From Candidatus Doudnabacteria bacterium (GTDB taxonomy: Bacteria; Patescibacteriota; Doudnabacteria; UBA920): DNA of 64,000 nt. The notes under the pieces were generated by a model. The model ran no database searches and was not told the origin of the DNA. It was given only the letters and a program-made list of their open reading frames with translations. Both the position numbers and the translations under genes were made by a program. Position 1 is the first letter of the stretch, and each line of letters begins with the position of its first letter. Positions 14,625-55,568 of the stretch are shown here, piece by piece. The stretch lies in contig CAVYGQ010000001.1 of NCBI GenBank assembly GCA_963768175.1, forward strand, positions 766,305-830,304, given 5' to 3'.

Positions 14625-14630
14625 CTCGCG

Positions 14631-24136: not shown

Positions 24137-24149
24137 TTAACCGACACCA

Positions 24150-33462: not shown

Positions 33463-34518
33463 TTATTTCCTATTGATCAAGTTTACTATTAGCTTTACCA
33501 TGACATTTTTCTGTACCGATTTGCTTTCGGCTATCAATAAAGCCAGGGCTACTAAAGCGGTATCGTTGACTTTGCGTTCGCCCTTTTTGTTGTTGAGACA
33601 ATTATTTTCTATCAAGAACAGCAAAAACAGCAAACAGCCAATGCGCTTGTTGCCGTCCACAAACGGATGGTCCTTAATGGCAAAATATAAAAGGTGCGCA
33701 GCCTTTTCTTCCAAGCTCTGATACAACTCTTTGCCGGCGTAAGTTTGGTAAATGCTCCCCAAAACGGCTTCCAGCTTGCCCCCTACTTCCTGGCCGAACA
33801 GGGAGCTGACTTCTTTTTTGACGGCAAGGCGCTGTTTGAACCGCGCGATGGTTTTTTGGATTTCCCCGTGGTCCAGCGGCCGCGCGGTTTTTTTGCTGAC
33901 ATCGGTTATCCCTAATTTACCTTCGTCGTATTCATGAAGCACCGTCCACGTGTTGGCGTAGTCTACAATAATGTTCAAAAATTCCTTTTCATACCCTTCC
34001 GCGCGCCGCGCTTCTATCACGTTTTGGAACAACTTTACCGTCTGCTGGAGTTCCTTAAGCTGGCTGTTATGTTCCTGCTTTAACTGGTCCAGCCGGTTTT
34101 TATTGACCGCGTAACCCTGGAGCAAATAATCGCGCAACCTTTGCGTTGCCCAAATGCGGAATTGCGTGCCGCGTTTGGAATTAACCCGATATCCAACCGA
34201 AATAATCATATCTAAATTATAATAAGTTGTTGGCTTATCTAAGCCAATTCCAGTAAAACTGGAATTGGCTTGTTTAAGAGAAGTTTCGGCCTGATTAAGT
34301 TCATTTTCTCTATAAATATTATTGATGTGCAAAGAAATAGTTCTGAAGTCTTTCTTAAACAATTCTGACATTTGAGCTTGTGTAAGCCAAACAGTTTGTC
34401 CTTCCATTCTTACCCTTAATTCCGGCCCTTCCGGGGCTTTATAAATAATAATTTCACCTTTTCTTGTTTCTTCTGACATAAAACTCCTTTTGTTCAAGCC
34501 AATATGTACTTTCTGCAT
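33463..34518 (-). CDS. Fic/Doc-family protein (RhuM-like N-terminal domain plus Fic domain) with the variant motif HPFVDGNKRIG
   Basis: Fic motif HPFx(D/E)GN(G/K)R at DHPFVDGNKRIGCLL. Confidence 0.7.
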   Translation of the reverse strand: MQKVHIGLNKRSFMSEETRKGEIIIYKAPEGPELRVRMEGQTVWLTQAQMSELFKKDFRTISLHINNIYRENELNQAETSLKQANSSFTGIGLDKPTTYYNLDMIISVGYRVNSKRGTQFRIWATQRLRDYLLQGYAVNKNRLDQLKQEHNSQLKELQQTVKLFQNVIEARRAEGYEKEFLNIIVDYANTWTVLHEYDEGKLGITDVSKKTARPLDHGEIQKTIARFKQRLAVKKEVSSLFGQEVGGKLEAVLGSIYQTYAGKELYQSLEEKAAHLLYFAIKDHPFVDGNKRIGCLLFLLFLIENNCLNNKKGERKVNDTALVALALLIAESKSVQKNVMVKLIVNLINRK

Positions 34519-34626
34519 ATTGGCTTATTTATAAGTATTTTCAGTTATCCGGAAATTCCGGATAGTTCAACTGTTGCATTTTTTGCAACAATTTAAATCT
34601 TTAATCCTAAATCTGGTATCTATTAT

Positions 34627-34666
34627 GGTATACTATCGTTCACCCCACGTCAACACCTTTAAAAAT
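34627..34666 (-). promoter_or_regulatory. second copy of the TTGAC(G)-ggtgaacgatag-TATAC(C) promoter module, about 110 nt upstream of the Fic gene
   Basis: Reverse complement reads ttgacgtggggtgaacgatagtatacc. Confidence 0.45.
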
Positions 34667-39700: not shown

Positions 39701-39732
39701 AAAACCCCGCCCTTTGCGAAGGGCGGGGTTGC
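39701..39732 (-). terminator. intrinsic terminator after paralog A (aaccccgccc-tttgcgaa-gggcggggtt plus U-tract on the minus strand)
   Basis: 10-bp GC stem; tttt follows on the transcribed strand. Confidence 0.65.
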
Positions 39733-39756: not shown

Positions 39757-42700
39757 TTATTTAGCCGATGAAAGCGATAAAACCGGGAACTGATAATTAA
39801 AAACTTCATCCGGATTTATCCAATAAAAATCTATATCATTAAATACCAGATTGCCGTAAGAACCGACAGGGTTGGCCTTTAACAAAGCTATATTAGCCGG
39901 ATCCCCGGTATTGTATTCCGTACCGTTAAATACATTTTGCTTAAGCCAATTATATTTTTGCTGCAAATACTGGTTGCCGGTTGCCAGTTGGCGAAAAACT
40001 TTGCCCTGCAAAACATACAAGGAAAAAGATTCGGCGAAGTCTTCATAGGGGGTATAATGGCTGGCATCCAGTTTATCTGATGTCCAACCGGTACCGTAAC
40101 TACTCACAAACTCGCTGGCCTTGGCCGAGTCTCCGCGCAACAAGGGATAGAAAGTCCAGCCGGAAGCGGTTAAAGGTTTGGTGGTGTCAAAACTAATGGA
40201 ATAAAAACCCATGGTATCAATTACCCCCCTGGATCCATAAGCAGAATCCGGCGGATAAAGGTTCTTGTCAAGGTAGTGTGCATACTCATGCATTACTGTA
40301 TTCAAAGCGTAGAAGTCGTCATGAATATCCGCGGTGTGGTTCATGGGGACGCAGCTGTCGCCCATTTCCGGATAATACACTTCCAAACATAATTTATAGT
40401 TTCCGTTTGTAATATCAAAGCCAGAAGGACCGACCTGCCCTGTTAACTGATAATAAGCATACCATTTAAAATTAGCTTCATTCCAAGTAGCCAATTTTGA
40501 GGGCAAGGCGCGGAAAGCTTTATCCAACAAGGCGGCCACGTGTTCCTTAGAAGGCGCATTTTGCGGGGCGTCGCCCATATGGGCTGGATACAAAGGAAAG
40601 TCAGCGGCAGCAATCGTATCTGCCTGCTCCACAGGAGCCAATTGGCTGTCAACTTTTAATAGTACGTCTTTAGAAATAATATCCGAGGTTGGGAAACTAT
40701 TTAACTTTTCATATTTATTCAAAAGAAAGTGCGCAACGCCGTTGGCGTTGTCAGTGGAACGGCTTGGCCCGTAACCGAGTTGCCGTATGGCCATCAAAAA
40801 ACGGTAAGCAAAAGGGCTTGTGCTGGCCGACGGAGCCCCTGCGGCCATCCCAAACGAAGTAACATCATAATTAGCCAGCGTCCCCGCCGCAATCGCCTGC
40901 GCCGTTGTATCGTCTTTCAAAAATTTACTTTTTAAGATAGAAGTATTTGAACCTCCGGTTACCGTAACCGTAAAACTCTGTGTTGCCGTGTTCCCTGAAC
41001 TGTCGCTGGCGGTAATGCTAATAGGATAGGTTCCGGCCGTAGTTGGGGTGCCGTATAGGAATATTTCATTTAACACAATAACCATCGGACAGGCTGTTTT
41101 CAAATCCTGGTTATTACAAGGAGCATAGCCAAAGTTCATACCCGGTACGCTGCCGGTTTCGGTAAAAGTATACCGGCCCATTAAGTCACCGGATGTGGGA
41201 GCGCCAGGGCCAGCATAAAAACCGATTTTTCCATAAGTGCCTTGGGTAAAATTTAACGAACCGCTAGAGGTGATGGTGATGACAGGCGAAGAGCCGGAAT
41301 TAACTATATTTATAGTCTGTCCGGCAATCGGAACCATTGGTCCAATAACTGCGCCATTTGTAGCCCAAGTACCGGTTACAGTATTTAAGATAACCAAATT
41401 TTGGTTACTTACACCTGAATTACTGTTAGTTACCCCCGACGCAACATCCGCATAAACATCAAGAATAGCCAAACTCCCAGCGGGAATAGCCATAGATCCA
41501 GTAAAAGTATAGAGGCCATTGCTTGCCACTACTGGTTGGGTAGTACCGAATTGTATATAACTTACTATATCATAATTAACGGTCTGTACTTTCATCAGGA
41601 GATTCCGGAAATTATTACTTATGGTATTTCGTGTTGCCGTCAGGGTTATGGAATTAATATTTGCGGTGCCGGCAGTATTGTTTTTAAGCTGAAAAGAAGC
41701 GATCCTTTGGTTTACTCCTCCCGAGGAAACAGAAATTGGCGAAACCACTACACTGTTTAAGCTTACCGACAAAGCTGCATTGCTTGACTGATTTACCACT
41801 ATAACTGTGAAATTCTGCGTTGCCGTATTGCCTAATTGATCCTTTACGGTAATGCTTATTGGATAAGTCCCGGCCACGGTGGGTGTGCCGTCCAAAAATA
41901 CATAATTAGGAAAAGCCGGTGGGTCCACACAGATGGTTAAACCAGGATGGTTGCAAGGACTGGCCTCAAAAACCATCCCCGGCACGTTGCCGGTTTCCGT
42001 AAAGCTATACATAGAATACACCCCGTTTGAAGACAACGGCTGGGCAACAAAATCGATTTTCCCATAGGTGCCTTGGATAAGATTTAGCGAATCGGTAGTG
42101 GTAATAGTTATGGAAGGCGGACTGCTACTTCCGGGAACGCTCGATAAATCCGCCAGGCAAGCGCTTTGTGAACTAAAAGTCTTTAAGCCTTGATACATAT
42201 AAGCGCCGCAGAACTGCTTTTGGGAAGAACAGGTAGTGTTGGTGGAGTCGTGCCACCACAAGGTATTGCAGATGGTGCCGCTACCGGAAGATGTAGAAGG
42301 CACGGCTATAGTAGTAAAGAACTTCCTTAGCAGCAGGGTGCCGGCTTTGGCGGGTTGGGTGTAGAACTCCACGCGGTAGGCGGTAGCGGGGGCTAAAGTG
42401 GCGGTCTGGGTGCCGGTTTGGCTGGCCGGGTCAACGGCCAAAAGGACTTTGGCTTTATTGGCTTTTAAGGTCACATACAAGGAACCTTGGGCATTGCGGG
42501 TTCTGCTCCAATTAAACTGGTAAGTCCACTGGTTGGCGGTGCTGTCGTAGGACAGCGGGGTAGCGGTAACCTTTAAAGAAGTGTTGGTGGCAGAGGTAAT
42601 GTAAATGGTAGGATAAGTGGCAACCCCTAAGATCTGGGGGGAAGAGGCGGTTTGGAGCTCCTGCATAGTTAAGGCTCTAGCCTTTAAGATAGGGCTAAAG

Positions 42701-42879
42701 GAGTAATTATCCGGGCTCCCGGCTACGCAGACCACGGCCGCAGCCACGGACACGGCCGCAAACAGCACAAAGGTCAAGGCAATAGCCGAGCTTACGTTGG
42801 CATGAAGCACGCACGACAAAAACGAGGGCTTTGTGGTGGCCACTTTGGCCGGAGCAACACACTTGGTATCCTTATGCAT
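39757..42879 (-). CDS. paralog A: secreted modular protein with a signal anchor, a conserved roughly 135-aa N-module, two He_PIG-like Ig domains and a C-terminal HEXXH zinc-metalloprotease domain
   Basis: N-terminal IALTFVLFAAVSVAAAVV; shared module PDNYSFSPILKARALTMQELQ...LLRKFFTT; Ig-like YGTPTTAGTYPISITASDSSGNTATQSFTVTV; NTVMHEYAHYL (HEXXH); the track start 42906 is a TTG, the first ATG is MHKDTKC. Confidence 0.7.
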   Translation of the reverse strand: MHKDTKCVAPAKVATTKPSFLSCVLHANVSSAIALTFVLFAAVSVAAAVVCVAGSPDNYSFSPILKARALTMQELQTASSPQILGVATYPTIYITSATNTSLKVTATPLSYDSTANQWTYQFNWSRTRNAQGSLYVTLKANKAKVLLAVDPASQTGTQTATLAPATAYRVEFYTQPAKAGTLLLRKFFTTIAVPSTSSGSGTICNTLWWHDSTNTTCSSQKQFCGAYMYQGLKTFSSQSACLADLSSVPGSSSPPSITITTTDSLNLIQGTYGKIDFVAQPLSSNGVYSMYSFTETGNVPGMVFEASPCNHPGLTICVDPPAFPNYVFLDGTPTVAGTYPISITVKDQLGNTATQNFTVIVVNQSSNAALSVSLNSVVVSPISVSSGGVNQRIASFQLKNNTAGTANINSITLTATRNTISNNFRNLLMKVQTVNYDIVSYIQFGTTQPVVASNGLYTFTGSMAIPAGSLAILDVYADVASGVTNSNSGVSNQNLVILNTVTGTWATNGAVIGPMVPIAGQTINIVNSGSSPVITITSSGSLNFTQGTYGKIGFYAGPGAPTSGDLMGRYTFTETGSVPGMNFGYAPCNNQDLKTACPMVIVLNEIFLYGTPTTAGTYPISITASDSSGNTATQSFTVTVTGGSNTSILKSKFLKDDTTAQAIAAGTLANYDVTSFGMAAGAPSASTSPFAYRFLMAIRQLGYGPSRSTDNANGVAHFLLNKYEKLNSFPTSDIISKDVLLKVDSQLAPVEQADTIAAADFPLYPAHMGDAPQNAPSKEHVAALLDKAFRALPSKLATWNEANFKWYAYYQLTGQVGPSGFDITNGNYKLCLEVYYPEMGDSCVPMNHTADIHDDFYALNTVMHEYAHYLDKNLYPPDSAYGSRGVIDTMGFYSISFDTTKPLTASGWTFYPLLRGDSAKASEFVSSYGTGWTSDKLDASHYTPYEDFAESFSLYVLQGKVFRQLATGNQYLQQKYNWLKQNVFNGTEYNTGDPANIALLKANPVGSYGNLVFNDIDFYWINPDEVFNYQFPVLSLSSAK

Positions 42880-42949
42880 ATATGTTAGTTCTTGCCCCCA
42901 CACCAAAACGCATTATTAAGCGTTCTAATTTAAAGGCAGTTATTTAATT
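42316..42949. repeat. 634-bp segment (5' leader plus signal peptide plus N-module of paralog A) nearly identical to 44343..44976 of paralog B
   Basis: Direct comparison finds only a few SNPs clustered in the signal-peptide codons plus one 1-nt indel. Confidence 0.85.
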
Positions 42950-43005
42950 GTTTTTACTTAATGCTAATTTTTTGCTTTTGTGGTTGCCCACTAAGAATTT
43001 AAAGG

Positions 43006-44906
43006 CTATTGCAGAGGATTATTTGCACAGTTTGCCCAAGTGCTATTTAATCGGTTAATTACATAGTTATAATTTTGCTGGTTAGCTCCGCTTGCCATGG
43101 TAAATTTATCGGCTGTTAAATTTGCCGTGCCTCCCTGCGTAACGGTGAAATCGGCGTAGGCGATATCTTGGCCGGTGTTATTATCGTGGTACGTAATCCT
43201 GTAACCCCCGAGAGGCAGATTAAATGTTTCTAGATGACGATACGCGCTAACCAAATTAACAGCAACATTACTCTCTCCATTGTTAGAAACCTGAAGAAAC
43301 CTCATTTGGGGCAAAATCGTAACATAATTGAATTTAGTGTAACTTGCAGCTAGCCCGGCGCTTACGGGAATAGAAGGAGGCTGGGACGAGCTGATAACAT
43401 AATTTATTTGATTGTTAACAACCACATAATACAGATCTTTGCCATCGGTTCTGGTTATATTAAACATTAAAGGGTCGCCGGCAAGCGAATCGCTGGCATA
43501 TAGATTGCCGTTGGTCGGGACATTGGCAATCGTTACGGTTCCGAATACCGAAGAAGCATTCGCAGTGTCAAATCCCTTATAAAGTTCTGTCCCAAAATAA
43601 TCCCCAGGCTGTAATGAAACAGCTGAATACGCGCTTTGGTTATCCAATTGCCTGAAATATGAATATACCATAGGGGGGAAATCCACGGTAACCCCAACGG
43701 GCTTGCCTTGGGCGGCGCCGAACGTGCTATTAAATACAAGCCATTGGCCGTTAATATAAGCTTGGGTGTTTGCGTGTGCTGCGCCCTGAACAGGCATGGC
43801 TATTCTTGCGGGGATGCCTGCCAGCCTGAACATGGCCGTGGTTATTACTGCGGCATCAAGGCATATCCCTGTTTTTTCGTTATAAATGTCAATTACGCTT
43901 TGCAGGTTATTCGCTGGAGTTAAGCCCGCAGGGCTACTAGAGCTAGTATCGAGTGCAAAATCGTAAGGCCTGGATTGCTCCACCCAACTGGCAATGGCAA
44001 CCGCTTTGCTCATATCGTCATTTTTTCCGGCAATTAATGTATCTACCTGATTTATTATGCCTGAATCATGCATCCAGTCGCTGTCTATTAATGGATAAAT
44101 GTTCGGCCCGAGATATTCCGCATTGTGCGGGTCATCAGTATCAGTAAAGTTGATATTGCAACTTACCAAGGAGTTTAAAGGTGGGTTGACAGTAATCGGA
44201 GGCGGGCTGCCGCTACCCGGACACGGGAGAAGCTGGCAGTTCGGGCCGGTATAGCCCACGGTGGTTTTGCCGTCCGGACACAGGACGGTAATATTAGGAC
44301 ACATTGTAATGAGGGATGGTTTAGCAGAAGAACTAAGGGTGGTAAAGAACTTCCTTAGCAGCAGGGTGCCGGCTGTGGCGGGTTGGGTGTAGAACTCCAC
44401 GCGGTAGGCGGTAGCGGGGGCTAAAGTGGCGGTCTGGGTGCCGGTTTGGCTGGCCGGGTCAACGGCCAAAAGGACTTTGGCTTTATTGGCTTTTAAGGTC
44501 ACATACAAGGAACCTTGGGCATTGCGGGTTCTGCTCCAATTAAACTGGTAAGTCCACTGGTTGGCGGTGCTGTCGTAGGACAGCGGGGTAGCGGTAACCT
44601 TTAAAGAAGTGTTGGTGGCAGAGGTAACGTAAATGGTAGGATAAGTGGCAACCCCTAAGATCTGGGGGGAAGAGGCGGTTTGGAGCTCCTGCATAGTTAA
44701 GGCTCTAGCCTTTAAGATAGGGCTAAAGGAGTAATTATCCGGCTCCCGGCTACGCAGACCACGGCCGCAGCCACGGACACGGCCGCAAACAGCACAAAGG
44801 TCAAGGCAATAACGGAGCTTATGTTGGCATGAAGGACCGACGACAAAAGCGAGGGCTTTGCGGTGGCCTCTTTTGCCGGAGCAATACACTTGGTATCCTT
44901 ATGCAT
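43006..44906 (-). CDS. paralog B: the same N-module fused to a transglutaminase-like cysteine-protease domain. In this sequence the gene is disrupted by a 1-nt deletion (GGG to GG near 44736) that separates the signal peptide (frame of ORF 44712..44933) from the body (ORF 43006..44889)
   Basis: Transglutaminase-core-like KTGICLDAAVITTAMFRLAGIPARIA ... GAAHANTQAYINGQWLVF; A reads ttatccgggctcccggc where B reads ttatccggctcccggc. Confidence 0.6.
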
Positions 44907-44976
44907 ATATGTTAGTTCTTGCCCCCACACCAAAACGCATTATTAAGCGTTCTAATTTAAAGGCAGTTATTTAATT
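44343..44976. repeat. second copy of the 634-bp near-identical segment (paralog B)
   Basis: See 42316..42949. Confidence 0.85.
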
Positions 44977-45082
44977 TTATTTTGGTTTCTCTCACCCCCC
45001 ATACTTAATTTTGGTGTGGGGGTGAATTTCAAAGGTTTCGCACTAATTTTGGCGCGAACCTAAATTTAAAACTTGTGACTAT

Positions 45083-45111
45083 ATTATAGCATAAATCAAT
45101 ACTTTCCGCAA
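45083..45111 (-). promoter_or_regulatory. promoter TTGCGG-17-TATAAT driving paralogs B and A; identical core upstream of paralog C
   Basis: Reverse complement reads ttgcggaaagtattgatttatgctataat. Confidence 0.55.
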
Positions 45112-45161
45112 GAATAAAAAATTAAATCCGCGTCGGCACTTTTGACTATTAGCCTTAGCCT

Positions 45162-45202
45162 GCAAAACGAAACCCCGCCCTGTCTAATGACGGAGCGGGG
45201 TT
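45162..45202 (-). terminator. intrinsic terminator after paralog C
   Basis: aaccccgc...gcggggtt stem; tcgttttgc on the minus strand. Confidence 0.6.
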
Positions 45203-45215
45203 AAATTTTGAAGCA

Positions 45216-48200
45216 CTAATGGCTTGCAACCCCGATGACTAAATCACTTTGGCCGGAACCATATTTATTGGTTGCGGCGTAGTTTAAACGATAGGTATAC
45301 CCGGCCTGGCAAGGCTGGATTGCAAACGGACCGCTCACTCCGTTGCTTGAATTCCCTCCCGAAGGAACAGGGCTCCAGTTGTTTTGATTCAAAGAAGGAG
45401 AGTAAAGTGTACCCATTTCAAACGGAAGCATAGCAATCACAGAAGGATCGGTTATATCCAATCCATACTTAACCGCCGGAAGATTACATCCGTCCTGAAA
45501 AACAGGGAGGCCTTTGGAATTAAGGAAGCCGTCGTAATCAAAGTAGTAAGAGGTACCTCCGGTGGAAGTCCACTTGTACCAGATATTGGTCCCGGGTGAA
45601 ACCGCAAGCGTGGAATACCACGGACCGTTTGCCCCGGCAGTGGAAGCCTGCAAGCTCGCTATAGGCGTTGCTTGCGAGGCGGGAACCACTGTCCCCGCGG
45701 GAGCGGCGTAAGCGTCAAAACTCTGCTGAGCCACCACCTGGCCTGAATATGTAAGTCCGCTGTTGGCTACAGATATCATACAATTAGGGACCTTTATCTT
45801 CATTATCATGCCCACGTACTGGTCGGAATAACACGTTTGTATGCCGCTACCTTTATTATAATAATTGTCCAAAATTATACCTGCAGGGAAGAGGACTCCG
45901 TCGCTGCGGCGGATAAAAGCTGTCGCGTCCTGACCCGCAGCTTCGCCAACAAAGTGGTCCAGTTCTAAGGTCGCTGGCGCGCTGCCTGCCTGTGTGGCCA
46001 TGAAATTAACTATTCGCAATGCTTCGTTTCCGCCTTCTTGTGTAGCTGCATACGGATATTGTCCCTGCCAGCCATTAGTCGTTTGGACAACATGGAACCA
46101 GTTCATAAATCCTGATACCGTGCCCGGTCCATATGTGCATTTATTCAGGCTGGGATTTGAGGCTTGGCTTAAGGAACCAATGAAACCGGAATAATAAGGA
46201 TTGAAGGATTCATAAAGATCTTTAGTCGTACCAGCGTAATTGTTAGTTTGAAGCACAATATTAGGCGCGCCGCTTGAGGTGGTCTGCCCACCGCCATTGC
46301 CTTCACAATGACCGGTAGGGTTAGCCGAAGAAGGACTATTCCCGCCGTAAACCGCAAGTTTTAGAGTAACGGTCGTGCCGCCTGTGGTATAGGTTAAGGC
46401 GTAAATATACCCTCCTTGGCAAGCAAGAATCGGGTAAGGCCCAGCATAACCGCTTGCGCCTGAATAGGTAAAGGGCTGTCCGCCAACCGTATAACCGGTA
46501 GTGTTACCGTTCCACGGGGTCCAGGTATTATTCGGTGTATTGCCGCAACCGTCTTTAGTAACGGTCTTACCGTTAATGTCGGTTATTGACGCGAGAGCAA
46601 AGCTGTAGTCAGAATCAGCACCGCCGCTCCAGCTATAAGTTATTTGATCGCCTCCCTTGCCAGTGGCATCACCTGCCTGGACGGAAAGGTTATCACTGTA
46701 GCTGTAGCCATTGGTTGTTTTTGCCGCAAAAGTAACTGTCGGTGTCGGATTAACTGCCGGATTAGTAGCAAGGGAAAAATTGCACGAACTAATATTTGCA
46801 TTGGGGTTAGTGCCTATGTCTGGGGAAGGGGCAGCCGAGGTGCTGGGAACCGTGCAGATAATGGTGTCGTCTACAGGCTTGCCAACAGGGTTTGCGGCAA
46901 GAAAGGTGGAAAGCGGGGCTTGGGTAAGGTCTACTGCTACCGGGGCATTAAGGTTGCCACCTTCGGACTGGTAAAGCGCTGCTCCTGCCGCATTTAAAGC
47001 CAGAGGGTAAGAGGCGTTTCCACTATTTATGCAAAGGCCTGCGTATTTACCCGTGCCAATAACCCAACTTACCTCTGTATTCTTAAGAAGAGGGCTAAAA
47101 GCTTGACTGACCACAGTAGACGCAGATACCGGAGCAAAATAATCATAGTTGGGTGCATCAATAGTACCGGTGGAATTGGGACATACTACAGTACCAGGAT
47201 TTTTATGCGCTGAAAGCGGCGGGCCATAAAAGAAAGTGTATTCGTTGTAGGTCACTTCTGGAATAAAATAAACACCCACATTAGCATTATAATCAGCAGG
47301 AGACTGGGATGTATACAAAGCAAGACTTCCCATGCTTACGGTTCCGTTGGGCCGCATATCATAGCCTTGCCTGCCGCTGAAATTCACTAACATTTGGCTG
47401 GGAACTAAGGTCAAATTAGCCGGTAGCTGGACTCCGGCGGGAATCAGGCTTTGGTAAGAAACCTTACTTACCTTTTGCTGGATAGCGTTCAAAAACGCCA
47501 GCTCATCTTGAGTCATATTAACAGCTCCGCTCGGTGTTAACGGTCTAATGTCTTCATACTCATATGTACTAGGGTTGTATGACTTTAAACTAACAGGAGT
47601 CGGGGTCGCTTGGGCAAGATCCCACCTGGATGACGCCCATTCTCCCGGAATAGGCATAGTCATGGCATCAGTACGATTCAAAGGCAGGCCGTCAAAAAAC
47701 CACGATAAGTAACCGCCGCTGCTATTAAAGTAATATTTCCCATCAGTTCCCTTATAATACAAATAACCATAATGTTCGCATGGTAAATTAGTCTGGGCTT
47801 CAAGCTTTTTTTCATCCGCAGGAAGAGTCCATCCATGGCCTGCGGTGGTATAAGTTGGCGACTGCCTGCTAAAGTACCAGTTTGTGCCGGCAATCTGGAC
47901 TATATCTGTGTCCGAAACATTCGCCAGCGGATCGTTGGTGCAGGTATAAGTTGAAGGAGGGATGGAAGGCGAACCGCCGCTGCCGGAAACAGCAGAAGAA
48001 CTTAGGGTGGTAAAGAACTTTCTTAGCAGTAAGTTACCGCCTTGGGCAGGCTGGGTGTAGAACTCTACGCGGTAGGCGGTAGAGGGAGCCAAGGTAACAA
48101 TCTGGGTACCGGTCTGGCTGGCTGGGTCAACGGTTAGTAAGACCTGGGTCTTGTCGGATTTTAGGGTGACATACAAAGAGCCTTGGGCATTGCGGGTTCT

Positions 48201-48527
48201 CTTCCAGTATATCTGGTAAGTCCACTGGTTGGCGGTGCTGTCGTAGGACAGCGGGGTAACAGTAACCAGTAAGGAAAGGTTGGTGGCAGAGGTAATGGTA
48301 ACGGTGGGGTAAGTAGTAATTCCCAAGACTTGGGGAGAAGAAGCGGCCTGGAGTTCGTCCATGGTTAAGGCTTTGGCCTTTAGGGCGGAGCCGGAAAAAC
48401 CGCTGCCGGAGGCGGTTGCAAATAAAACAAAAGCCAGCGCAATAGCTGAGCTTATTTTGGCATTGAACACCGACGACAAAAACGAAGGCCGTTTCGCCGC
48501 AGAAACACACCTAGTATTCTGATTCAT
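45216..48527 (-). CDS. paralog C: diverged copy of the N-module (about 60% identity) fused to a roughly 950-aa Gly/Thr/Ser-rich beta-repeat (adhesin-like) region
   Basis: ALKAKALTMDELQAASSPQVLG...LLRKFFTTLSSSA; repeated CQ.GY.Y.L.Y beta-strand motifs; hydrophobic N-terminal segment. Confidence 0.65.
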   Translation of the reverse strand: MNQNTRCVSAAKRPSFLSSVFNAKISSAIALAFVLFATASGSGFSGSALKAKALTMDELQAASSPQVLGITTYPTVTITSATNLSLLVTVTPLSYDSTANQWTYQIYWKRTRNAQGSLYVTLKSDKTQVLLTVDPASQTGTQIVTLAPSTAYRVEFYTQPAQGGNLLLRKFFTTLSSSAVSGSGGSPSIPPSTYTCTNDPLANVSDTDIVQIAGTNWYFSRQSPTYTTAGHGWTLPADEKKLEAQTNLPCEHYGYLYYKGTDGKYYFNSSGGYLSWFFDGLPLNRTDAMTMPIPGEWASSRWDLAQATPTPVSLKSYNPSTYEYEDIRPLTPSGAVNMTQDELAFLNAIQQKVSKVSYQSLIPAGVQLPANLTLVPSQMLVNFSGRQGYDMRPNGTVSMGSLALYTSQSPADYNANVGVYFIPEVTYNEYTFFYGPPLSAHKNPGTVVCPNSTGTIDAPNYDYFAPVSASTVVSQAFSPLLKNTEVSWVIGTGKYAGLCINSGNASYPLALNAAGAALYQSEGGNLNAPVAVDLTQAPLSTFLAANPVGKPVDDTIICTVPSTSAAPSPDIGTNPNANISSCNFSLATNPAVNPTPTVTFAAKTTNGYSYSDNLSVQAGDATGKGGDQITYSWSGGADSDYSFALASITDINGKTVTKDGCGNTPNNTWTPWNGNTTGYTVGGQPFTYSGASGYAGPYPILACQGGYIYALTYTTGGTTVTLKLAVYGGNSPSSANPTGHCEGNGGGQTTSSGAPNIVLQTNNYAGTTKDLYESFNPYYSGFIGSLSQASNPSLNKCTYGPGTVSGFMNWFHVVQTTNGWQGQYPYAATQEGGNEALRIVNFMATQAGSAPATLELDHFVGEAAGQDATAFIRRSDGVLFPAGIILDNYYNKGSGIQTCYSDQYVGMIMKIKVPNCMISVANSGLTYSGQVVAQQSFDAYAAPAGTVVPASQATPIASLQASTAGANGPWYSTLAVSPGTNIWYKWTSTGGTSYYFDYDGFLNSKGLPVFQDGCNLPAVKYGLDITDPSVIAMLPFEMGTLYSPSLNQNNWSPVPSGGNSSNGVSGPFAIQPCQAGYTYRLNYAATNKYGSGQSDLVIGVASH

Positions 48528-48766
48528 ATGTGTTATTTCTTAATGGTAATCCCTTCCCTCCTATTATATATTAAAGAAGAAAAGATGACCATTATTTAAT
48601 TGTTTTTCTTGCCCCGTTAGAAACCTCACAATTATTTTGGAAGTGGTTTCTAAAGAAGTAAGTTTGTCGTTTTTATTTCTTTTATTCACCCTAATTCCTA
48701 ACGGGGTGAGTTTCAAGGAGTCCGCACTAATTTTGATGCAAACTTAAGTTTAAAATTTGTGTAAAT

Positions 48767-48795
48767 ATTATAGCATAAAATAAGATTTTCCGCAA
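48767..48795 (-). promoter_or_regulatory. promoter TTGCGG-17-TATAAT for paralog C, followed by a roughly 235-nt leader sharing a conserved 70-nt 5' block with the paralog B leader
   Basis: Reverse complement reads ttgcggaaaatcttattttatgctataat; conserved cgcactaattttg block and a covarying hairpin. Confidence 0.55.
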
Positions 48796-48798
48796 GGA

Positions 48799-48838
48799 CG
48801 CAAAAAAATCCGGAGCCTATCCGGATTTTATTTTTTAC
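48799..48838 (-). terminator. intrinsic terminator after pilB (aaaatccgg-agcctat-ccggatttt plus U7)
   Basis: 9-bp stem with a T-run on the minus strand. Confidence 0.65.
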
Positions 48839-48854
48839 ATCAATCCATTATTCC

Positions 48855-50510
48855 TTACCCCTCCCCGGCCACGCGGAACACCTCTTCAACATCCGTCATT
48901 CCCTGCAAAGCTTTAAGCAGGCCGTCCTGAACCATGGTTATCATACCCTGGCCTACGGCCACTTTTTTAAACTCGGCCATAGAAGAATTTTCTTTTAATA
49001 TTAACGCCTGAATAGCTTCGGTGTTTTCCAAAACTTCATAAATGCCGACGCGGCCGTTGTAGCCTAAAGTGTGGCACTGGGGGCAGCCAGTAGAATGATA
49101 AAAAATCAGCTCCTTAGTCAGTTCCACTTTGGCAACTTTCGGGATTTGTTTTAAAATGTATTGGATTTTCTCCAAAACCGTGGGAGAAAGCTTGGCCGGC
49201 TTTTTACAATTTTGGCACAACCGGCGAACCAGGCGTTGGGCTAATACGACCGAAAGCGCCGGCGCCGCCACAAAAGGTTTTATGCCCATGTTCAGCAAGC
49301 GCGGAATGGCGCCGGCGGCATCATTGGTATGCAGCGTGGAAAAAACCAAGTGGCCCGTTAGCGCCGCCTGCAGCGCCGTCTCTGCGGTTTCCTGGTCGCG
49401 GATTTCGCCGACCATAACAATATCCGGATCCTGCCGTAGAATGGCGCGCAGACCTTTGGCAAAATCAAAATCGTGATTATGGTCAATCGGGGTTTGTACT
49501 ATGCCCTCCAGCTTGTATTCCACGGGGTCTTCCAAAGTAATTATTTTTACCCCAGGCTTATTCAATTCGTTTAAAAACGCATAAAGCGAGGTGGTTTTGC
49601 CGCTGCCAGTAGGGCCGGTGGTTATAACCATGCCATTGGGTTTTTGCAGCTGCCTTTCCACCACTTCCAAAGCTTGGGCGGAAAAACCCAAATCTTTTAA
49701 CTTTAACGTGCTGGCTCCCGTGCCCAAAAGGCGCATAACAATTTCCTCACCGTAGGCGGAAGGCAATACCGACACGCGCACGTCTATGGGTTTTTGCAAA
49801 TAATAAAAAGTAATACGCCCGTCCTGCGGCAGGTCTTCCACGTTGAGTTTCAGTTTGGATAAAATTTTTATTCTGGTAGTAATGGAGCGCTGGAGGTCTT
49901 TGCTTAAATGCAGCATGTCCTGCAGCACACCGTCTACGCGGAACCGCAACTTAAAAAAATGCTCCTCCGGCTCCAAATGGATGTCCGAAGATTTATAAAA
50001 CATGCCGGCGCCAAAAATAATTTCCAAAAGCTGGCTGGCATTTTTTTTCTTTTGCTCTGGCTCCTGTTGCATCAGCTTAAGCATCTCACCATAGTCTTCC
50101 TCCTTTTCCACGCGCAAAACTTCCTCGGTAACCGCTTTAGGGCGCAAAACTTTGCTGTAAAATTTCAGCGTCTGCTCCAGTCCCTTTTTGGAAATAAAAT
50201 ATAACGTGACTTTATTTTTTGCGGACAACTCCTTTATTTTTTCCAAAAGCAGCGGATGTTTGGGCTGTGTGGTACCAATGCGCAAATCGGTTAAATCCTT
50301 ATAAAACGGAACCGCGCACATTTCCCGGGCTTCGGCTTCCGTAAACATGCCCAAAACGCTTAAATCCACGGGAAAATTGTGCAAATCTATGTACGGCAAC
50401 CCTAAAGAACCGGCCTGGGCCTGGGCTTCTTCTTCCTGCATTTTACGGTTTAGCTCATCCAGGCTCCCCTGCAATTCCTGTGGAGTGCTGGATAAAAATT
50501 TATTGGCCAT
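48855..50510 (-). CDS. pilB: type IV pilus / type II secretion assembly ATPase (PilB/GspE family); start set at MANKFL (the track start is a TTG)
   Basis: Walker A TGPTGSGKTTSLYA; Asp box; His box; C-terminal tetracysteine CPQCHTLGYNGR. Confidence 0.9.
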   Translation of the reverse strand: MANKFLSSTPQELQGSLDELNRKMQEEEAQAQAGSLGLPYIDLHNFPVDLSVLGMFTEAEAREMCAVPFYKDLTDLRIGTTQPKHPLLLEKIKELSAKNKVTLYFISKKGLEQTLKFYSKVLRPKAVTEEVLRVEKEEDYGEMLKLMQQEPEQKKKNASQLLEIIFGAGMFYKSSDIHLEPEEHFFKLRFRVDGVLQDMLHLSKDLQRSITTRIKILSKLKLNVEDLPQDGRITFYYLQKPIDVRVSVLPSAYGEEIVMRLLGTGASTLKLKDLGFSAQALEVVERQLQKPNGMVITTGPTGSGKTTSLYAFLNELNKPGVKIITLEDPVEYKLEGIVQTPIDHNHDFDFAKGLRAILRQDPDIVMVGEIRDQETAETALQAALTGHLVFSTLHTNDAAGAIPRLLNMGIKPFVAAPALSVVLAQRLVRRLCQNCKKPAKLSPTVLEKIQYILKQIPKVAKVELTKELIFYHSTGCPQCHTLGYNGRVGIYEVLENTEAIQALILKENSSMAEFKKVAVGQGMITMVQDGLLKALQGMTDVEEVFRVAGEG

Positions 50511-50535
50511 TGTTGGATTGAACAAGAATTAAAAG

Positions 50536-51949: not shown

Positions 51950-52044
51950 AGCGACCCGAATCTACGAATGCCATCCGAATTATCCGAATGGGTCTAATTA
52001 GGATTATTCGGGTATAATTCGTCAAATTCGGGTCGGCCAACCAG
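51950..52044 (+). promoter_or_regulatory. CGAAT-rich promoter-associated element with core GACCCGAATCTACGAA immediately upstream of tsaE
   Basis: gcgacccgaatctacgaatgccatccgaattatccgaatggg... Confidence 0.5.
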
Positions 52045-52513: not shown

Positions 52514-53721
52514 TGAAAAAGGTTTGTTTAACAATTTTTTTACTGCTCACTTTCGCCCCGGCTAAGAACGCTTTTGCCGATGCCTTGAACAACGGTTTTA
52601 CTTTTACTTTTGGCCAGCAGACATTCGCTGTCCCAGCAGAGACCGTTGCTTCCTGGGAAGGCCAACAAATCGTAACACCAAATCCGGCTTTAAACCCGCC
52701 AGCGACTAATTTCCAAAGTTACCTGCTTAATTTTTTGGGCCAACTAGCGCCTGCACAAAATTCCACACTTACCTATAACTACGATTTGGGCGCAATCTAT
52801 AATTACATCCAAACTTTATCAATCCAGATTAATATAAAATCGCAGGAACCGGAACTGGTTATACAAAACAACCGCGCCACCAGTTTTACCCCGCCGCAAA
52901 CCGGCATGGAAGTGGATATTTACCAAAGCTCGCTTAACGCCTCGGCGGCGCTGGCAACGGGAAAAAATTCCAGCGAACTCACGGTATACCAAACCCCGCC
53001 AGAAACTTCTCTGACCCAAACCAATAATCTAGGAATCAACCAGCTTATTGGCGAAGGCGTTTCCAGTTTTGCCGGCAGCCCAAATAACCGCCGCCACAAC
53101 ATTGCCGCGGGCATTGAAAAATTCAAAGGCCTCCTAATTGTTCCTGGCGCGACTTTTAGTTTTGACGACAACTTGGGGGCGGTTACGGCGGAGGCCGGAT
53201 TTTTGCCGGAACTGGTAATTAAAGGCAGTGAAGGCACGATTCCCGAATTAGGCGGCGGACTATGCCAGGTGTCCACTACTACTTTCCGCGCCGCGATGCA
53301 CACCGGCCTGCCGATTACCGAACGCCGCAACCACGCCTACGCCGTGCAGTATTACTCGCCGCAGGGCACGGACGCGACCATCTACCCGGGCTCCGCGGAT
53401 TTAAGATTCATTAACGACACCCCGGGCACTATTTTAATTTGGCCTTACGAAAAAGACAAAAACACTTTGGTATTTGACTTTTACGGGACAGATGATGGCC
53501 GGCAGGTTACTTTAGAAAGGCCCGTGGTCTACGACCGCCAGAGCGACGGCAGTATGAAGGCTACTTGGACCAGGATAGTGGTAAAAGACGGCGAAACCTC
53601 CACCAGTACTTTTAAATCCATTTACCTATCTCCCGCACTATTCCACAAAACCGAAAGCTTTATTTCCGCCACCGGCACACCGATTAGCGGCCTAAAAATG
53701 CCAACCGCAAAAACTCAATAA
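52513..53721 (+). CDS. secreted VanW-family protein
   Basis: Signal peptide MKKVCLTIFLLLTFAPAKNAFA; VanW core GGGLCQVSTTTFRAAMHTGLPITERRNHAY...GTDATIYPGSADLRFIND; the start overlaps the tsaE stop (TAATG). Confidence 0.75.
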   Translation: MKKVCLTIFLLLTFAPAKNAFADALNNGFTFTFGQQTFAVPAETVASWEGQQIVTPNPALNPPATNFQSYLLNFLGQLAPAQNSTLTYNYDLGAIYNYIQTLSIQINIKSQEPELVIQNNRATSFTPPQTGMEVDIYQSSLNASAALATGKNSSELTVYQTPPETSLTQTNNLGINQLIGEGVSSFAGSPNNRRHNIAAGIEKFKGLLIVPGATFSFDDNLGAVTAEAGFLPELVIKGSEGTIPELGGGLCQVSTTTFRAAMHTGLPITERRNHAYAVQYYSPQGTDATIYPGSADLRFINDTPGTILIWPYEKDKNTLVFDFYGTDDGRQVTLERPVVYDRQSDGSMKATWTRIVVKDGETSTSTFKSIYLSPALFHKTESFISATGTPISGLKMPTAKTQ

Positions 53722-54291: not shown

Positions 54292-54449
54292 AAGACATCT
54301 CTTACAAGGGCTGTCTTTTTTAAAAAACCGAAAGCTTTATCAGCGCTACCGGCACCCCGATTAGCGGGCTAAAAATGCCGTCCGTTAAAACCCAATAAAT
54401 TAAGATGCAATTAGCTAAGCGGCTGCCAATATAGTAAAATAACAATACC

Positions 54450-54527
54450 GATACAAATATACGAATTGGACGCGAATAATACGAATTCGTATCATTAGTG
54501 TGGCATTCGTGTATTAGTGTCGCCAAT
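54450..54527 (+). promoter_or_regulatory. conserved leader ending GTCGCCAATATG, paralogous to 24150..24220, directly upstream of ruvB
   Basis: See 24150..24220; the track ORF start 54498 is upstream read-through. Confidence 0.5.
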
Positions 54528-55568
54528 ATGATCACATCTAACCAACAACAAACTGCCCCCCTCTCCGCCCAGCCGGAGGATCGGGAAGAAATAATTATAG
54601 AGCAGACTTTGCGGCCGCAAAGCCTACTTGAGTATGTGGGGCAAACGGGGATAAAAAATAACCTGAAAATTATAATGCAGGCCGCCAAGCAGCGCGGCGA
54701 GGTTTTGGAACATCTTTTATTTTACGGCCCGCCGGGCTTGGGCAAAACCACGCTGGCCTTTATTGTCGCGCGTGAAATGGGCGGCAACATTAAAGTCACT
54801 TCCGGCCCGGCCATCGAACGCGCCGGCGATTTAGCCAGCCTGCTTACCAATTTAAGCGAGGGCGACGTGTTGTTTATAGATGAAATCCACCGCCTGAACA
54901 AAGCCGTGGAAGAAGTCTTGTATCCTGTCATGGAAGACTATGTTTTGGATATAGTTTTAGGCAAAGGCCCGGGCGCGCGCAGCATAAGAATGGATTTGCC
55001 AAAATTTACGCTCATTGGCGCCACCACCAGAATCGGCCTTTTATCTAGCCCCCTGCGCGACCGCTTTGGCGCCACCTACCGTTTGGAGTATTACCCGGAA
55101 GAAGATTTGCAAACCATCATTAGCCGCAACAGCAAAATATTGCAGGCAAAAATTGCCGATGACGCGGCAAAGGAACTTTCCCGGCGCTCGCGCTTTACCC
55201 CGCGCATTGCCAACCGCCTGCTCAAGCGGGTAAGGGATTTTGCCCAAGTCCGCGGCCATGATACAATTAATTTACAAACGGCGAAAGCTGCCTTAGAACT
55301 ATTGGAAATAGACAGCCAAGGGCTGGACAAGAACGACCGCCGGATTTTGGAAACTTTAATCCATAAGTTCTCCGGCAAGCCCGTGGGCCTAAATACCCTG
55401 GCGGCGGCCACGGGCGAAGAAGAAGACACCATAACCGACGTCTATGAACCTTTCTTAATCCGCATGGGAATGATTGCCAAAACTCCAAAGGGCCGCCAAG
55501 CCACGGAAGCGGCATACAGGCATTTGGGGGTAACACCTCCAACTCAAGGGCAACAAACCATCCTTTAA
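54528..55568 (+). CDS. ruvB: Holliday junction branch-migration ATPase RuvB
   Basis: Walker [15 protein letters not shown]; DEIHRL; sensor and arginine-finger motifs; start ATG inside the conserved leader. Confidence 0.92.

What the first reader, a model, noticed from the sequence alone, without database searches (positions are those of the whole stretch)
39757..50525. pilB-linked array of three paralogous secreted proteins with a shared N-terminal module and swapped C-terminal enzymatic domains
Four consecutive minus-strand genes are pilB and then three large proteins. Each begins with a hydrophobic signal/anchor and a conserved N-terminal module of about 135 aa (PDNYSFSPILKARALTMQELQ...YRVEFYTQPA...LLRKFFTT). 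The module ends in a Ser/Gly linker. After the linker the three proteins diverge completely. A carries two He_PIG-like Ig domains and an HEXXH zincin domain (VMHEYAHYL). B carries a transglutaminase-like Cys-protease core (GICLDA...GIPARI). C carries about 950 aa of Gly/Thr-rich beta repeats. The N-module is 100% identical between A and B and about 60% identical in C. B and C share the same TTGCGG-17-TATAAT promoter and a long conserved 5' leader. This looks like a polymorphic or effector-type surface-protein system in which one carrier or targeting module is fused to different hydrolytic heads. Such a system is plausibly tied to the adjacent type IV pilus ATPase or to host and surface interaction. 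I do not recognise the N-module as a described domain.
Basis: partly seen in the sequence, partly recalled or inferred. Interest (0 to 1): 0.85.

Follow-up and report, generated by a model that had tools for sequence, protein, structure and literature searches.

The report
Surface proteins sharing one swapped-head module
Three neighbouring genes of an ultrasmall (Patescibacteria) bacterium encode exported proteins that share an undescribed FN3-like N-terminal domain and carry unrelated heads; they lie in a strain-variable island next to pilB and do not appear to be part of a pilus system.

Summary
The core observation holds. pilB is followed by three genes (C, B, A) that share a signal/anchor and a module of about 125 aa, and then carry unrelated C-terminal parts. 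Several details are wrong. Module identity is 97% (A/B) and about 80% (A/C). B is frameshifted between its signal and the module. C has no detectable repeats. A's "zincin" rests only on an HEXXH motif.

The module defines a real, unannotated family with 85 cluster representatives. It almost always sits right after a signal peptide. No Pfam, NCBIfam or PDB sequence match was found. The AlphaFold model (pLDDT 90.8) is a 7-strand FN3/Ig-like sandwich. Family heads are very diverse: peptidases, glycosidases, lectins and Ig domains. Every member with known taxonomy is from Patescibacteria or Saccharibacteria.

A second genome has a tandem array with modules 87-96% identical and heads 24-33% identical, so module homogenisation with head swapping is a family trait.

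The pilB link is weak. pilB stands alone among housekeeping genes, and a terminator plus a separate promoter divide it from C. In relatives the pilB-polA gap holds nothing, other secreted proteins or defence genes.

A covarying 5' leader hairpin shared by these genes is a side finding.

Verdict: a new domain family within a familiar architecture. Interest is moderate.

The parts
48855..50525 (-). pilB/gspE-family ATPase. It is a neighbour of the array, not shown to be part of it.
   Evidence: Pfam T2SSE E=2.3e-120. TIGR02538 scores 489 bits, below the equivalog cutoff of 675.
48805..48829 (.). Terminator-like hairpin between pilB and gene C.
   Evidence: 10-pair stem followed by a T run.
48767..48795 (-). 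Promoter of C: TTGCGG, 17 nt spacer, TATAAT with TGC immediately upstream of the -10.
   Evidence: 2 matches in the window, 0 expected. Sequence.
48694..48766 (-). Conserved 5' leader hairpin element of C (loop CAAAAUUA).
   Evidence: Covariance model R1 hit at 60 bits. Covariation. The whole leader 48528-48766 folds with z=-4.35.
45216..48527 (-). Gene C, 1103 aa: long-n signal/anchor, module, Ser/Gly linker, then a ~900-aa head with no recognised domain.
48006..48380 (-). N-module of C (residues 50-174).
45173..45200 (-). Terminator-like hairpin plus T run after C.
   Evidence: Sequence read directly (CCCCGC...GGGCGGGG TTTCGTTTTG).
45083..45111 (-). Promoter of B, same format as C's.
45016..45082 (-). 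Conserved 5' leader hairpin element of B.
   Evidence: R1 hit at 68.6 bits. Leader fold z=-4.64.
44712..44906 (-). B, upstream reading frame: signal/anchor nearly identical to A's, ending in a premature stop.
44741..44742 (-). 1-nt deletion in B (CC instead of the CCC seen in A) that separates the signal from the module.
   Evidence: alignment, columns 530-545. The repeat offset changes from 2028 to 2027.
43006..44889 (-). B, main reading frame (627-aa ORF): module (44338-44712), Cys-rich mini-domain, and transglutaminase-like core (43729-44043).
39757..42879 (-). Gene A, 1040 aa: signal/anchor, module (42310-42684), Cys-rich mini-domain, two He_PIG-like Ig domains (41770-42129 and 40933-41298), and a C-terminal region with HEYAH (40276-40290).
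42880..42975 (-). Proximal leader shared by A and B (AATTAAATAACTG, a hairpin, then GGGGGCAAGAAC). A has no promoter of the B/C type.
   Evidence: (D2).
39703..39730 (.). Strong hairpin between A and polA, terminator-like on both strands.

Best explanation
A, B and C belong to an undescribed family of exported cell-surface proteins of Patescibacteria.

Proposed architecture and mechanism:
- Each protein is made with an N-terminal Sec-type signal or signal-anchor.
- Directly after it comes a conserved ~125-aa FN3/Ig-like beta-sandwich (the module), then a Ser/Gly/Pro linker and often a small Cys-rich knot.
- After that comes a lineage-specific head: Ig adhesin-like domains with a possible metallopeptidase in A, a transglutaminase-like cysteine-protease core in B, and an unknown 900-aa region in C.
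- I infer that the module is the common membrane- or wall-proximal part. It would hold or space different binding and hydrolytic heads on the cell surface, where they act on the surroundings or on the host bacterium.

How the genes diversify:
- The conserved 5' block (leader, signal and module) is kept homogeneous within a genome by gene conversion.
- That block serves as the recombination handle by which heads are exchanged.

Where the array sits:
- It lies in a strain-variable insertion hot spot between pilB and polA.
- It has its own promoter and structured leader.
- It is not a pilus operon.

Shown: the family, its position after a signal, the fold, purifying selection, head diversity, the pattern of homogenised modules with swapped heads in two genomes, the variable island, and the separate transcription signals.

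Inferred: export, surface retention by the module, and the action of the heads.
For: FAMILY
- An exhaustive HMMER search with the module found 85 representatives at 50% identity, 60 of them at E<=1e-10.
- The module starts within about 20-100 residues of the N-terminus in nearly all.
- It is preceded by a hydrophobic segment in 75 of 85. The other 10 are mostly truncated ORFs or ORFs with a wrongly called start.

UNDESCRIBED
- No Pfam family covers it in any of the 85 members.
- There is no NCBIfam hit and no PDB profile hit.

FOLD
- AlphaFold2 with a 57-sequence family alignment gave pLDDT 90.8 and seven strands.
- One relative has a sub-threshold Pfam fn3 hit on the module.

SELECTION
- A vs C module: dS 0.70, dN 0.12, omega 0.17.

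HEADS
- Heads in the family include TIG, F5/8-C, PKD, He_PIG, Peptidase_M10, Reprolysin_4, Transglut_core, GH43, GH130, Laminin_G_3, Malectin, PA14, beta-helix and Dockerin.

SECOND ARRAY
- GCA_964532425.1 has five tandem family genes, each with its own terminator and promoter.
- Modules of four adjacent genes are 87-96% identical, while their heads are 24-33% identical.
- In the window, A/B dS is 0.02. B is a mosaic: its distal leader and linker resemble C, and its proximal leader, signal and module resemble A.

TAXONOMY
- RpoB's nearest named relative is a Patescibacteria MAG.
- P0003 is from a Patescibacteria MAG.
- All 7 confirmed genome hits are Saccharibacteria MAGs.

ISLAND
- The backbone vanW-tsaE-DHH-pilB-[variable]-polA is conserved.
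- The gap ranges from 62 nt to 9.15 kb with differing content.

CONTEXT FROM THE LITERATURE
- In cultured Saccharibacteria, large extracellular proteins with glycan-binding or glycan-degrading domains are essential for epibiotic growth (PMC10633639).
Against: - No experiment or predictor of export was available. Signal peptides were judged by hydrophobicity and by eye only.
- The role of the module as anchor or stalk is inferred from position and conservation alone. No binding partner is indicated, and the fold is generic: Foldseek found no hit at E<=1e-3.
- B is broken in the assembly.
- The catalytic competence of the heads is untested. A's peptidase is motif-only. In B the third triad position looks like Asn rather than Asp by eye.
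- Taxonomy is known for only a minority of family members.
- The word-indexed protein search and the first genome and metagenome scans missed the family entirely. Its true size and distribution are therefore uncertain.
Confidence: 0.6

Rival explanations
1. Pilus-linked system. The module docks the heads onto type IV pili, or the proteins are exported or assembled with the help of the adjacent PilB ATPase.
For: - pilB is adjacent in the window.
- In four relatives the first gene after pilB is a small anchored protein with a diverged module and the same promoter and leader.
- Two other family loci have pilin genes about 5 kb away (L029; L031).
- Type IV pili are central to host attachment in Saccharibacteria (abstracts of PMC9894109 and PMC11623550).
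Against: - A terminator and a separate promoter lie between pilB and C.
- There are no other pil genes or prepilin motifs in the 64 kb window.
- The proteins have Sec-type N-termini, not class III (G|FTLIE) signals.
- Three relatives have pilB directly followed by polA, and others carry unrelated cargo there.
- Seven Saccharibacteria loci and L027, L032 and L033 have no pil gene nearby.
Confidence: 0.1
2. The module is a recognition tag for export, sorting or folding that is read by a dedicated envelope machine. It would be analogous to the T9SS C-terminal domain, and would not be a surface anchor or stalk.
For: - Its position is strictly N-terminal, next to the signal, across very different cargo.
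- A conserved extended signal-anchor type (MNPYxY...ISSAIALAFVLFAA) accompanies many members.
Against: - No conserved partner gene is seen next to family members.
- Short 'headless' module proteins exist, which fits a structural role better than a tag.
Confidence: 0.2
3. Polymorphic toxin or effector cassettes: a trafficking domain joined to interchangeable toxin heads, each with a cognate immunity gene.
For: - The N-terminal part is shared and the C-terminal parts are unrelated.
- Protease-like heads are present.
- The location is a variable island that carries defence genes in relatives.
Against: - The spaces between the genes are occupied by terminators, promoters and leaders. No small ORFs of immunity type lie between them.
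- The heads are 430-900 aa and multi-domain, with Ig, lectin and glycosidase content.
- No known toxin or secretion-marker domains such as RHS, LXG, PT-TG or MAFB were hit.
Confidence: 0.05
4. Decaying or mis-assembled repeats: the array is a product of collapsed or chimeric assembly, or consists of pseudogenes without function.
For: - B is frameshifted at a CC/CCC run.
- A related genome's homologue, P0004, also ends in a frameshifted module and has an odd domain order.
- A and B share 300 nt at 99% identity, which could confuse short-read assembly.
Against: - A and C are long intact ORFs.
- The three copies differ and have unique flanks.
- The module is under purifying selection, omega 0.17.
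- The same architecture recurs in independent assemblies.
- The contig is 949 kb long.
Confidence: 0.07

Closest known systems
Gram-positive cell-wall protein families built on a shared anchoring module (SLH-domain proteins; Clostridioides difficile CWB2 'Cwp' family). From my own knowledge.
   Same: - A signal peptide, then a conserved module common to many paralogues, then variable enzymatic or adhesive domains that include proteases.
- Paralogues are clustered in the genome.
- The proteins are displayed on the surface.
   Different: - The module here is a single FN3-like sandwich with no sequence relation to SLH or CWB2, and neither was hit in Pfam.
- Its ligand is unknown.
- Some members keep a membrane anchor.
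- Modules are homogenised within arrays.
Fibronectin type III / Ig-like beta-sandwich domains (Pfam fn3; DUF3244, PDB 3d33)
   Same: - An 'L-x-P-x-T-x-Y' F-strand motif aligns with tenascin and fibronectin FN3.
   Different: - There is no significant sequence or profile match. hhalign probability is 12% or less, and Pfam fn3 appears only below threshold in one relative.
- It has a fixed position right after the signal, and distinctive conserved W-x-Y...W-x-R and LLLRKFFTT motifs.
Essential extracellular adhesins and glycan-binding proteins of Saccharibacteria (Southlakia epibionticum Tn-seq, PMC10633639)
   Same: Large exported proteins of Patescibacteria with FN3, dockerin or lectin-type domains, thought to bind or degrade host surface glycans.
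   Different: I could not test whether those proteins carry this module. That paper does not describe the module or head swapping.
Flexible genomic islands encoding cell-surface proteins (e.g. the Haloquadratum walsbyi cell-wall island, PMC4535781; the hypervariable Ig-protein module in Thermococcales, PMC8416519)
   Same: A fixed chromosomal site between conserved genes whose content differs between close relatives. The content is surface proteins and sometimes defence genes.
   Different: The organisms and protein families are different. Here a shared 5' module, promoter and leader accompany the variable genes.
Polymorphic toxin systems and modular type IV pilins (PMC8179133)
   Same: A conserved N-terminal part joined to interchangeable C-terminal functional modules.
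   Different: There are no immunity genes, no toxin marker domains and no prepilin signal.
Long structured 5' untranslated leaders of S-layer and surface-protein mRNAs that stabilise the transcript. From my own knowledge.
   Same: A strong promoter followed by a promoter-proximal stem-loop and a 180-240 nt structured leader ahead of surface-protein genes.
   Different: No function has been tested. The loop sequence CAAAAU(U)A is conserved, which suggests a specific binding partner rather than stability alone.

Membership tests
Pfam fn3 (PF00041) / FN3 superfamily | Significant match to the family profile | tested here: not met
   A, B and C have no fn3 hit. One Saccharibacteria relative has 22.9 bits on the module against a cutoff of 25. 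hhalign against two FN3 sequences gave 12% and 2% probability.
Pfam fn3 (PF00041) / FN3 superfamily | Seven-strand Ig-like beta-sandwich fold | tested here: met
   [not shown]
Type IV pilus gene cluster / pilus-associated proteins | Co-transcription or conserved clustering with pilus assembly genes | tested here: not met
   A terminator and a separate promoter lie between pilB and C. pilB is solitary. The pilB-polA gap is variable or empty in relatives. Pilins are nearby in only 2 other loci.
Type IV pilins / modular pilins | Class III signal peptide (G|F-T-L-I-E followed by a hydrophobic helix) | tested here: not met
   A regex scan of the window found none. The same scan found the genuine pilins in L029 and L031. 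The N-termini of A and C were read.
Polymorphic toxin systems | C-terminal toxin domain with an adjacent small immunity gene, plus secretion-system marker domains | tested here: not met
   There are no small ORFs between the genes; the intergenic DNA holds terminators, promoters and leaders. No toxin or marker domains were hit.
SLH / CWB2 cell-wall-anchored protein families | Presence of SLH or CWB2 repeats | tested here: not met
   No such Pfam hits in A, B, C or the 85 relatives. The resemblance is architectural only.
Transglutaminase-like superfamily (head of B) | Match to Transglut_core above the gathering score | tested here: met
   47.4 bits against a cutoff of 23, E=2.6e-12. The Cys (GICLDA) and His are present. 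The third position looks like Asn by eye. Activity was not tested.
He_PIG Ig-like domain (A) | Match above the gathering score | tested here: met
   29.5 bits against a cutoff of 24. Two stretches were matched and the internal duplication was confirmed.
Zincin metallopeptidases (C-terminal part of A) | HEXXH plus a third zinc ligand within a recognisable peptidase fold or family | tested here: inconclusive
   HEYAH is at residue 864 and EDFAESF lies 82 residues later. There is no Pfam hit at E<=5, no NCBIfam hit and no PDB hit.
PilB/GspE ATPases (neighbouring gene) | T2SSE domain and PilB equivalog score | tested here: met
   T2SSE scores 402 bits. TIGR02538 scores 489 bits, below its equivalog cutoff of 675, so membership holds at family level only.
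Rfam RNA families (shared leader) | Match to any curated covariance model | tested here: not met
   0 hits at gathering score in the window. 0 hits at E<=1 in 42800-48900.

The most novel reading that the evidence does not exclude
The module could be a docking domain that loads a changing repertoire of hydrolases and adhesins onto one common surface structure of these epibiotic bacteria, such as the pilus fibre, an S-layer or a wall polymer. The result would be a 'cellulosome-like' attack and attachment apparatus. Its parts would be exchanged between strains by recombination at the conserved 5' block. They would be co-regulated through a new cis-acting leader RNA, the CAAAAU(U)A-loop hairpin.
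Probability: 0.12. Interest if true: 0.8.

Novelty: new variant of a known kind. Interest (0 to 1): 0.5.

Why it matters
Patescibacteria live attached to other microbes, and their surface proteins are thought to determine host range, yet most of these proteins are unannotated.

This finding gives a handle on one recurring building plan. It consists of an undescribed FN3-like domain directly after the signal peptide, carried by dozens of otherwise unrelated exported proteins. The domain is kept nearly identical within a genome while the functional heads are exchanged, and here it sits in a strain-variable island.

A profile of the module could be used to list candidate host-interaction proteins in these genomes. 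The shared promoter and leader hairpin points to a possible common regulator.

The finding does not change any general principle. Conserved anchoring modules with variable heads, and flexible islands of surface genes, are both well known.

Tried and rejected
- The word-indexed protein search found nothing, either with A residues 1-201 or with the 57-sequence family alignment. The exhaustive HMMER search was what revealed the family.
- The first genome and metagenome scans with the three-sequence module alignment confirmed nothing.
- A hand-made degenerate DNA pattern for G-x-LLLRK[FY]F[TN]T gave 26 loci. Seven were real and all seven were Saccharibacteria.
- Exact look-ups of C, DHH, A and P0004 found no contig.
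- The afdb50 fold library was unavailable.

STRUCTURE AND FOLD
- AF2 on three sequences was poor, pLDDT 49.7. It was replaced by the family alignment.
- Fold searches gave only generic beta-sandwich matches.

HEADS
- The C-terminal region of A and the head of C had no Pfam match even at a lenient E-value limit (up to 5), and no NCBIfam or PDB match.

ORIGIN
- A phage origin was considered, because a shared N-terminal anchor with swapped tips is the plan of phage tail fibres. I rejected it. There was no tblastn hit in 50,697 phage records, no pattern match in viral contigs, and signal peptides are present.

LEADER RNA
- There is no Rfam family for the leaders.
- RNAalifold on the MAFFT alignment recovered only 4 pairs. 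I therefore supplied the structure by hand and checked it by covariation counting.
- The covariance model found no instances beyond the 9 already seen in 872 kb.


Full report
WHAT IS IN THE SEQUENCE

Region 39757-50525 holds four minus-strand genes:
- pilB, 48855-50525. It has a T2SSE domain (E=2.3e-120). It reaches PilB/GspE family level only, because TIGR02538 scores 489 bits against an equivalog cutoff of 675.
- C, 45216-48527, 1103 aa.
- B, listed as the ORF 43006-44889.
- A, 39757-42879 from its ATG, 1040 aa.

The repeat search shows a shared 5' block. A and B match at 99% over 300 nt and 95% over a further 242 nt. C matches at 82%. tblastn finds the module nowhere else in the window. 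After the motif LLRKFFTT the three proteins have no detectable similarity.

B IS BROKEN AS ASSEMBLED

The offset between the A and B repeats changes from 2028 to 2027. The alignment shows GGGAGCCCGG in A and GGGAGCCGG in B. The ATG at 44906 encodes a signal/anchor almost identical to A's. That frame runs into a stop after 64 codons. The module and head are in another frame.

The public protein library holds the same truncated ORF (P0001), so the deletion is in the deposited assembly. I cannot tell whether it is a sequencing error at a short C run or a real pseudogene.

B is also a mosaic:
- Its promoter, distal leader and post-module linker (TTLSSSA) resemble C.
- Its proximal leader, signal and module resemble A.
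- A/B dS is 0.02 against 0.64-0.70 to C.

This pattern points to a recent conversion tract of about 640 nt.

THE HEADS

- A has He_PIG above threshold and a clear internal duplication, residues ~251-370 vs ~528-649.
- A's proposed zincin domain is only HEYAH plus EDFAESF 82 residues later. No profile or PDB sequence supports it.
- B has a transglutaminase-like core.
- C's 900-aa head matches nothing and has no convincing internal repeats. Its composition is like A's head.
- Directly after the module, A and B each carry a short Cys-rich segment. Similar segments recur at 48-70% identity in other family members.

THE MODULE IS A REAL, UNDESCRIBED FAMILY

The word-indexed protein search and the first collection scans found nothing. 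The exhaustive HMMER search found 85 representatives, 60 of them at E<=1e-10.

- In nearly all, the module begins 10-100 residues from the N-terminus.
- 75 of 85 have a hydrophobic segment before it. Of these, 50 have a short classical n-region and 25 have a long one. The other 10 are mostly truncated ORFs or ORFs with a wrongly called start.
- Many show a typical A-x-A site followed by ALT(M)xEL.
- Pfam scans of all 85 found no family covering the module.
- The C-terminal domains are very wide-ranging: TIG, F5/8-C, PKD, He_PIG, fn3, Kre9_KNH, Peptidase_M10, Reprolysin_4, Transglut_core, GH43, GH130, Laminin_G_3, Malectin, PA14, beta-helix, DUF922 and Dockerin.
- NCBIfam and a PDB profile search gave nothing.

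With three sequences AlphaFold gave pLDDT 49.7. With a 57-sequence family alignment it gave 90.8 and a seven-strand sandwich.

- Foldseek has no hit at E<=1e-3.
- hhalign against two classical FN3 sequences aligns only the L-x-P-x-T-x-Y F-strand motif, at low probability.

The fold is therefore FN3/Ig-like, but the family is not a recognisable member of Pfam fn3. Between A and C the module has omega 0.17, so it is conserved by selection and not only by recent copying.

WHO HAS IT

- The window's RpoB is 85% identical to that of a 'Patescibacteria group bacterium' MAG.
- A and B lie on a 949-kb contig.
- P0003 is from a Patescibacteria MAG.
- A degenerate DNA pattern for the end of the module gave 26 loci in the species-representative genomes. 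The family profile confirmed seven of them, all uncultured Saccharibacteria.
- No phage or viral-contig match exists.

THE SAME PATTERN IN A SECOND GENOME

GCA_964532425.1 carries at least eight family genes.

- Five are in tandem (564, 914, 831, 831 and 906 aa). Each has its own terminator, an extended -10 promoter and a leader of about 130-190 nt.
- In four adjacent genes the modules are 87-96% identical, while the heads are 24-33% identical, which is background level.

'Homogenised module, unrelated heads, tandem array' is thus a property of the family and not an oddity or artefact of this window.

IS IT TIED TO PILB?

Evidence against:
- The window is housekeeping DNA near the origin: leuS-like, rpoB, rpoC, murE-like, femAB, uvrB, polA, DHH, tsaE, vanW, ruvB, recF and dnaN. 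There is no other pilus gene and no prepilin motif.
- A terminator-like hairpin (48805-48829) and C's own promoter separate pilB from C.
- A metagenome scan with PilB gave 60 loci. In relatives with 78-92% identical PilB the backbone vanW-tsaE-DHH-pilB-[gap]-polA is conserved.
- The gap is 62-96 nt in three relatives, and 1.4-7.2 kb in others. Its content differs each time: small anchored proteins with a diverged module; unrelated secreted proteins; a 1227-aa anchored He_PIG protein; a RadC-like gene with a restriction-modification system; or Abi-like genes.
- The site is therefore a strain-variable insertion hot spot.
- The seven Saccharibacteria loci and L027, L032 and L033 have no pil genes nearby.

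Evidence for some link:
- Four relatives have a module-like gene as the first gene after pilB.
- Two unrelated family loci have pilin genes about 5 kb away.

With so few and non-independent loci, I treat this as suggestive at most.

SHARED PROMOTER AND LEADER

B and C share CTTGCGGAAA-N-TGCTATAATAT, that is TTGCGG, 17 nt, then TATAAT with TGC immediately upstream of the -10 (2 matches, 0 expected).

- Both leaders fold much better than shuffles, with z of -4.6 and -4.35.
- The same promoter and a promoter-proximal hairpin precede the variable genes after pilB in five relatives. The hairpin has the loop CAAAAU(U)A and is followed by UUUGAAAC and an A-rich tract.
- The same element precedes a 2604-aa surface protein in another Patescibacteria MAG.
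- A covariance model found 9 instances in 872 kb, two of them in the window.
- On their alignment 77% of cells pair, against 61% in shuffles (0 of 500 shuffles reach it). Seven of 10 pairs show compensatory changes, and slid controls give 24-51%.
- The caveats are the small sample and an alignment fitted to the model.
- Rfam has no match.
- A lacks this promoter and may be co-transcribed with B.

INTERPRETATION

The best-supported reading is a family of Sec-exported surface proteins. A conserved FN3-like domain next to the signal is the common base, and the distal parts are interchangeable binding or hydrolytic heads. Within a genome the 5' block is homogenised and provides the homology for exchanging heads.

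That the module retains or spaces the heads at the envelope is my inference. It rests on the module's position, its purifying selection and the existence of short 'headless' versions.

The closest analogy in architecture is the SLH or CWB2 type of wall-anchored protein family (from my own knowledge). The closest biological context is the set of large extracellular glycan-binding proteins found essential for epibiotic growth of a cultured Saccharibacterium (PMC10633639). I could not test whether those proteins carry this module.

The polymorphic-toxin reading fails on missing immunity genes and toxin markers. The pilus reading fails on transcription signals and variable synteny. An assembly artefact is unlikely given the intact ORFs of A and C, the sequence differences between copies and the recurrence elsewhere. 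B may still be a pseudogene.

VERDICT

The pilB link and the zincin and repeat calls are not supported.

This is a new domain family and a new variant of a familiar surface-protein architecture. It sits in a flexible island and comes with a possibly new leader RNA motif. Interest is moderate, about 0.5.

Noticed in passing
window 45016-45082 and 48694-48766 (minus strand); also L034 9737-9809, L045 2413-2485, L075 2086-2158, L088 1185-1257, L090 353-428, L039 11771-11844, L031 16455-16528: A conserved promoter (TTGC[AG][AG], 17-18 nt, TGCTATAAT) is followed by a 5' leader hairpin with an invariant loop CAAAAU(U)A and covarying stems, then UUUGAAAC and an A-rich tract. It sits ahead of different surface-protein genes. 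There is no Rfam match. Seven of 10 pairs show compensatory changes.
   Followed up: yes
window 42880-42975, 44907-45000, 48528-48620; L027 ~5130-5187: A second, start-proximal leader motif is shared across genomes: CAATTAAATA, then a GC-rich hairpin, then GGGGCAAG[AG]A 13-20 nt before the ATG (much further upstream, ~85 nt, in C). In B and C a 12-14 nt long-range helix (CCCCCACACCAAAA/UUUUGGUGUGGGGG in B; CCCCGUUAGGAA/UUUCUAACGGGG in C) competes with a local hairpin. This could act as a switch.
   Followed up: partly
window N-termini of A (42879-42715) and C (48527-48400); relatives L034, L039, L045, L075, L090; P0041, P0049, P0053, P0071, P0075, P0077: An extended N-terminal signal-anchor type carries a conserved cytoplasmic tail (often MNPYxY...) and the hydrophobic core ISSAIALAFVLFAA. 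Proteins both with and without the module share it, so it is a separable unit.
   Followed up: partly
P0004 (a related genome, 192.7-kb contig): This homologue has C's signal and ALTMDELQ..VLG segment, then about 480 aa of other sequence. The beta-sandwich part comes at the C-terminus and ends in a frameshifted tail. It is either a domain rearrangement or another broken copy.
   Followed up: no
window 14849-14933, 24140-24224, 51952-51999, 54447-54531: Four copies of a palindromic intergenic repeat of about 75-85 nt, 68-84% identical, that folds into a long imperfect hairpin (z down to -4.1). It is REP- or MITE-like.
   Followed up: partly
window 14072-15403: The spacer between rpoB and rpoC is unusually long at 1.3 kb. 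It contains two copies of a 63-nt GC-rich repeat (14629-14691 and 15127-15189, 86% identical) and one palindromic repeat. No convincing ORF is present.
   Followed up: partly
window 53638-53721 and 54315-54398: The last 84 nt of the vanW-like gene, including its stop codon, are repeated at 82% identity 677 nt downstream, just before ruvB. This is probably a remnant of a second copy.
   Followed up: no
window 9907-9947 and 34625-34665: A 41-nt repeat (85% identical) lies immediately upstream of one minus-strand gene (start 9908) and ~105 nt upstream of another (start 34518). On the coding strand it reads as TTGACA/TTGACG, 17 nt, then TATACT, so it looks like a shared promoter.
   Followed up: no
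L087 2107-7496; L036 4701-6210: In close relatives the same pilB-polA gap carries a RadC-like gene, a type III-like restriction-modification pair, or AbiEi/AbiEii-like genes. The site also accepts defence genes (function assigned by eye from the sequences).
   Followed up: no
L029 1-9732 and 17171-20335 (GCA_964532425.1 contig 1): Two family genes sit between a giant 8734-aa protein and a cluster of five type IV pilin genes (GFTLIELLVVISIIGLL).
   Followed up: partly
window 33463-34518: A RhuM/Fic-domain gene lies among housekeeping genes.
   Followed up: no
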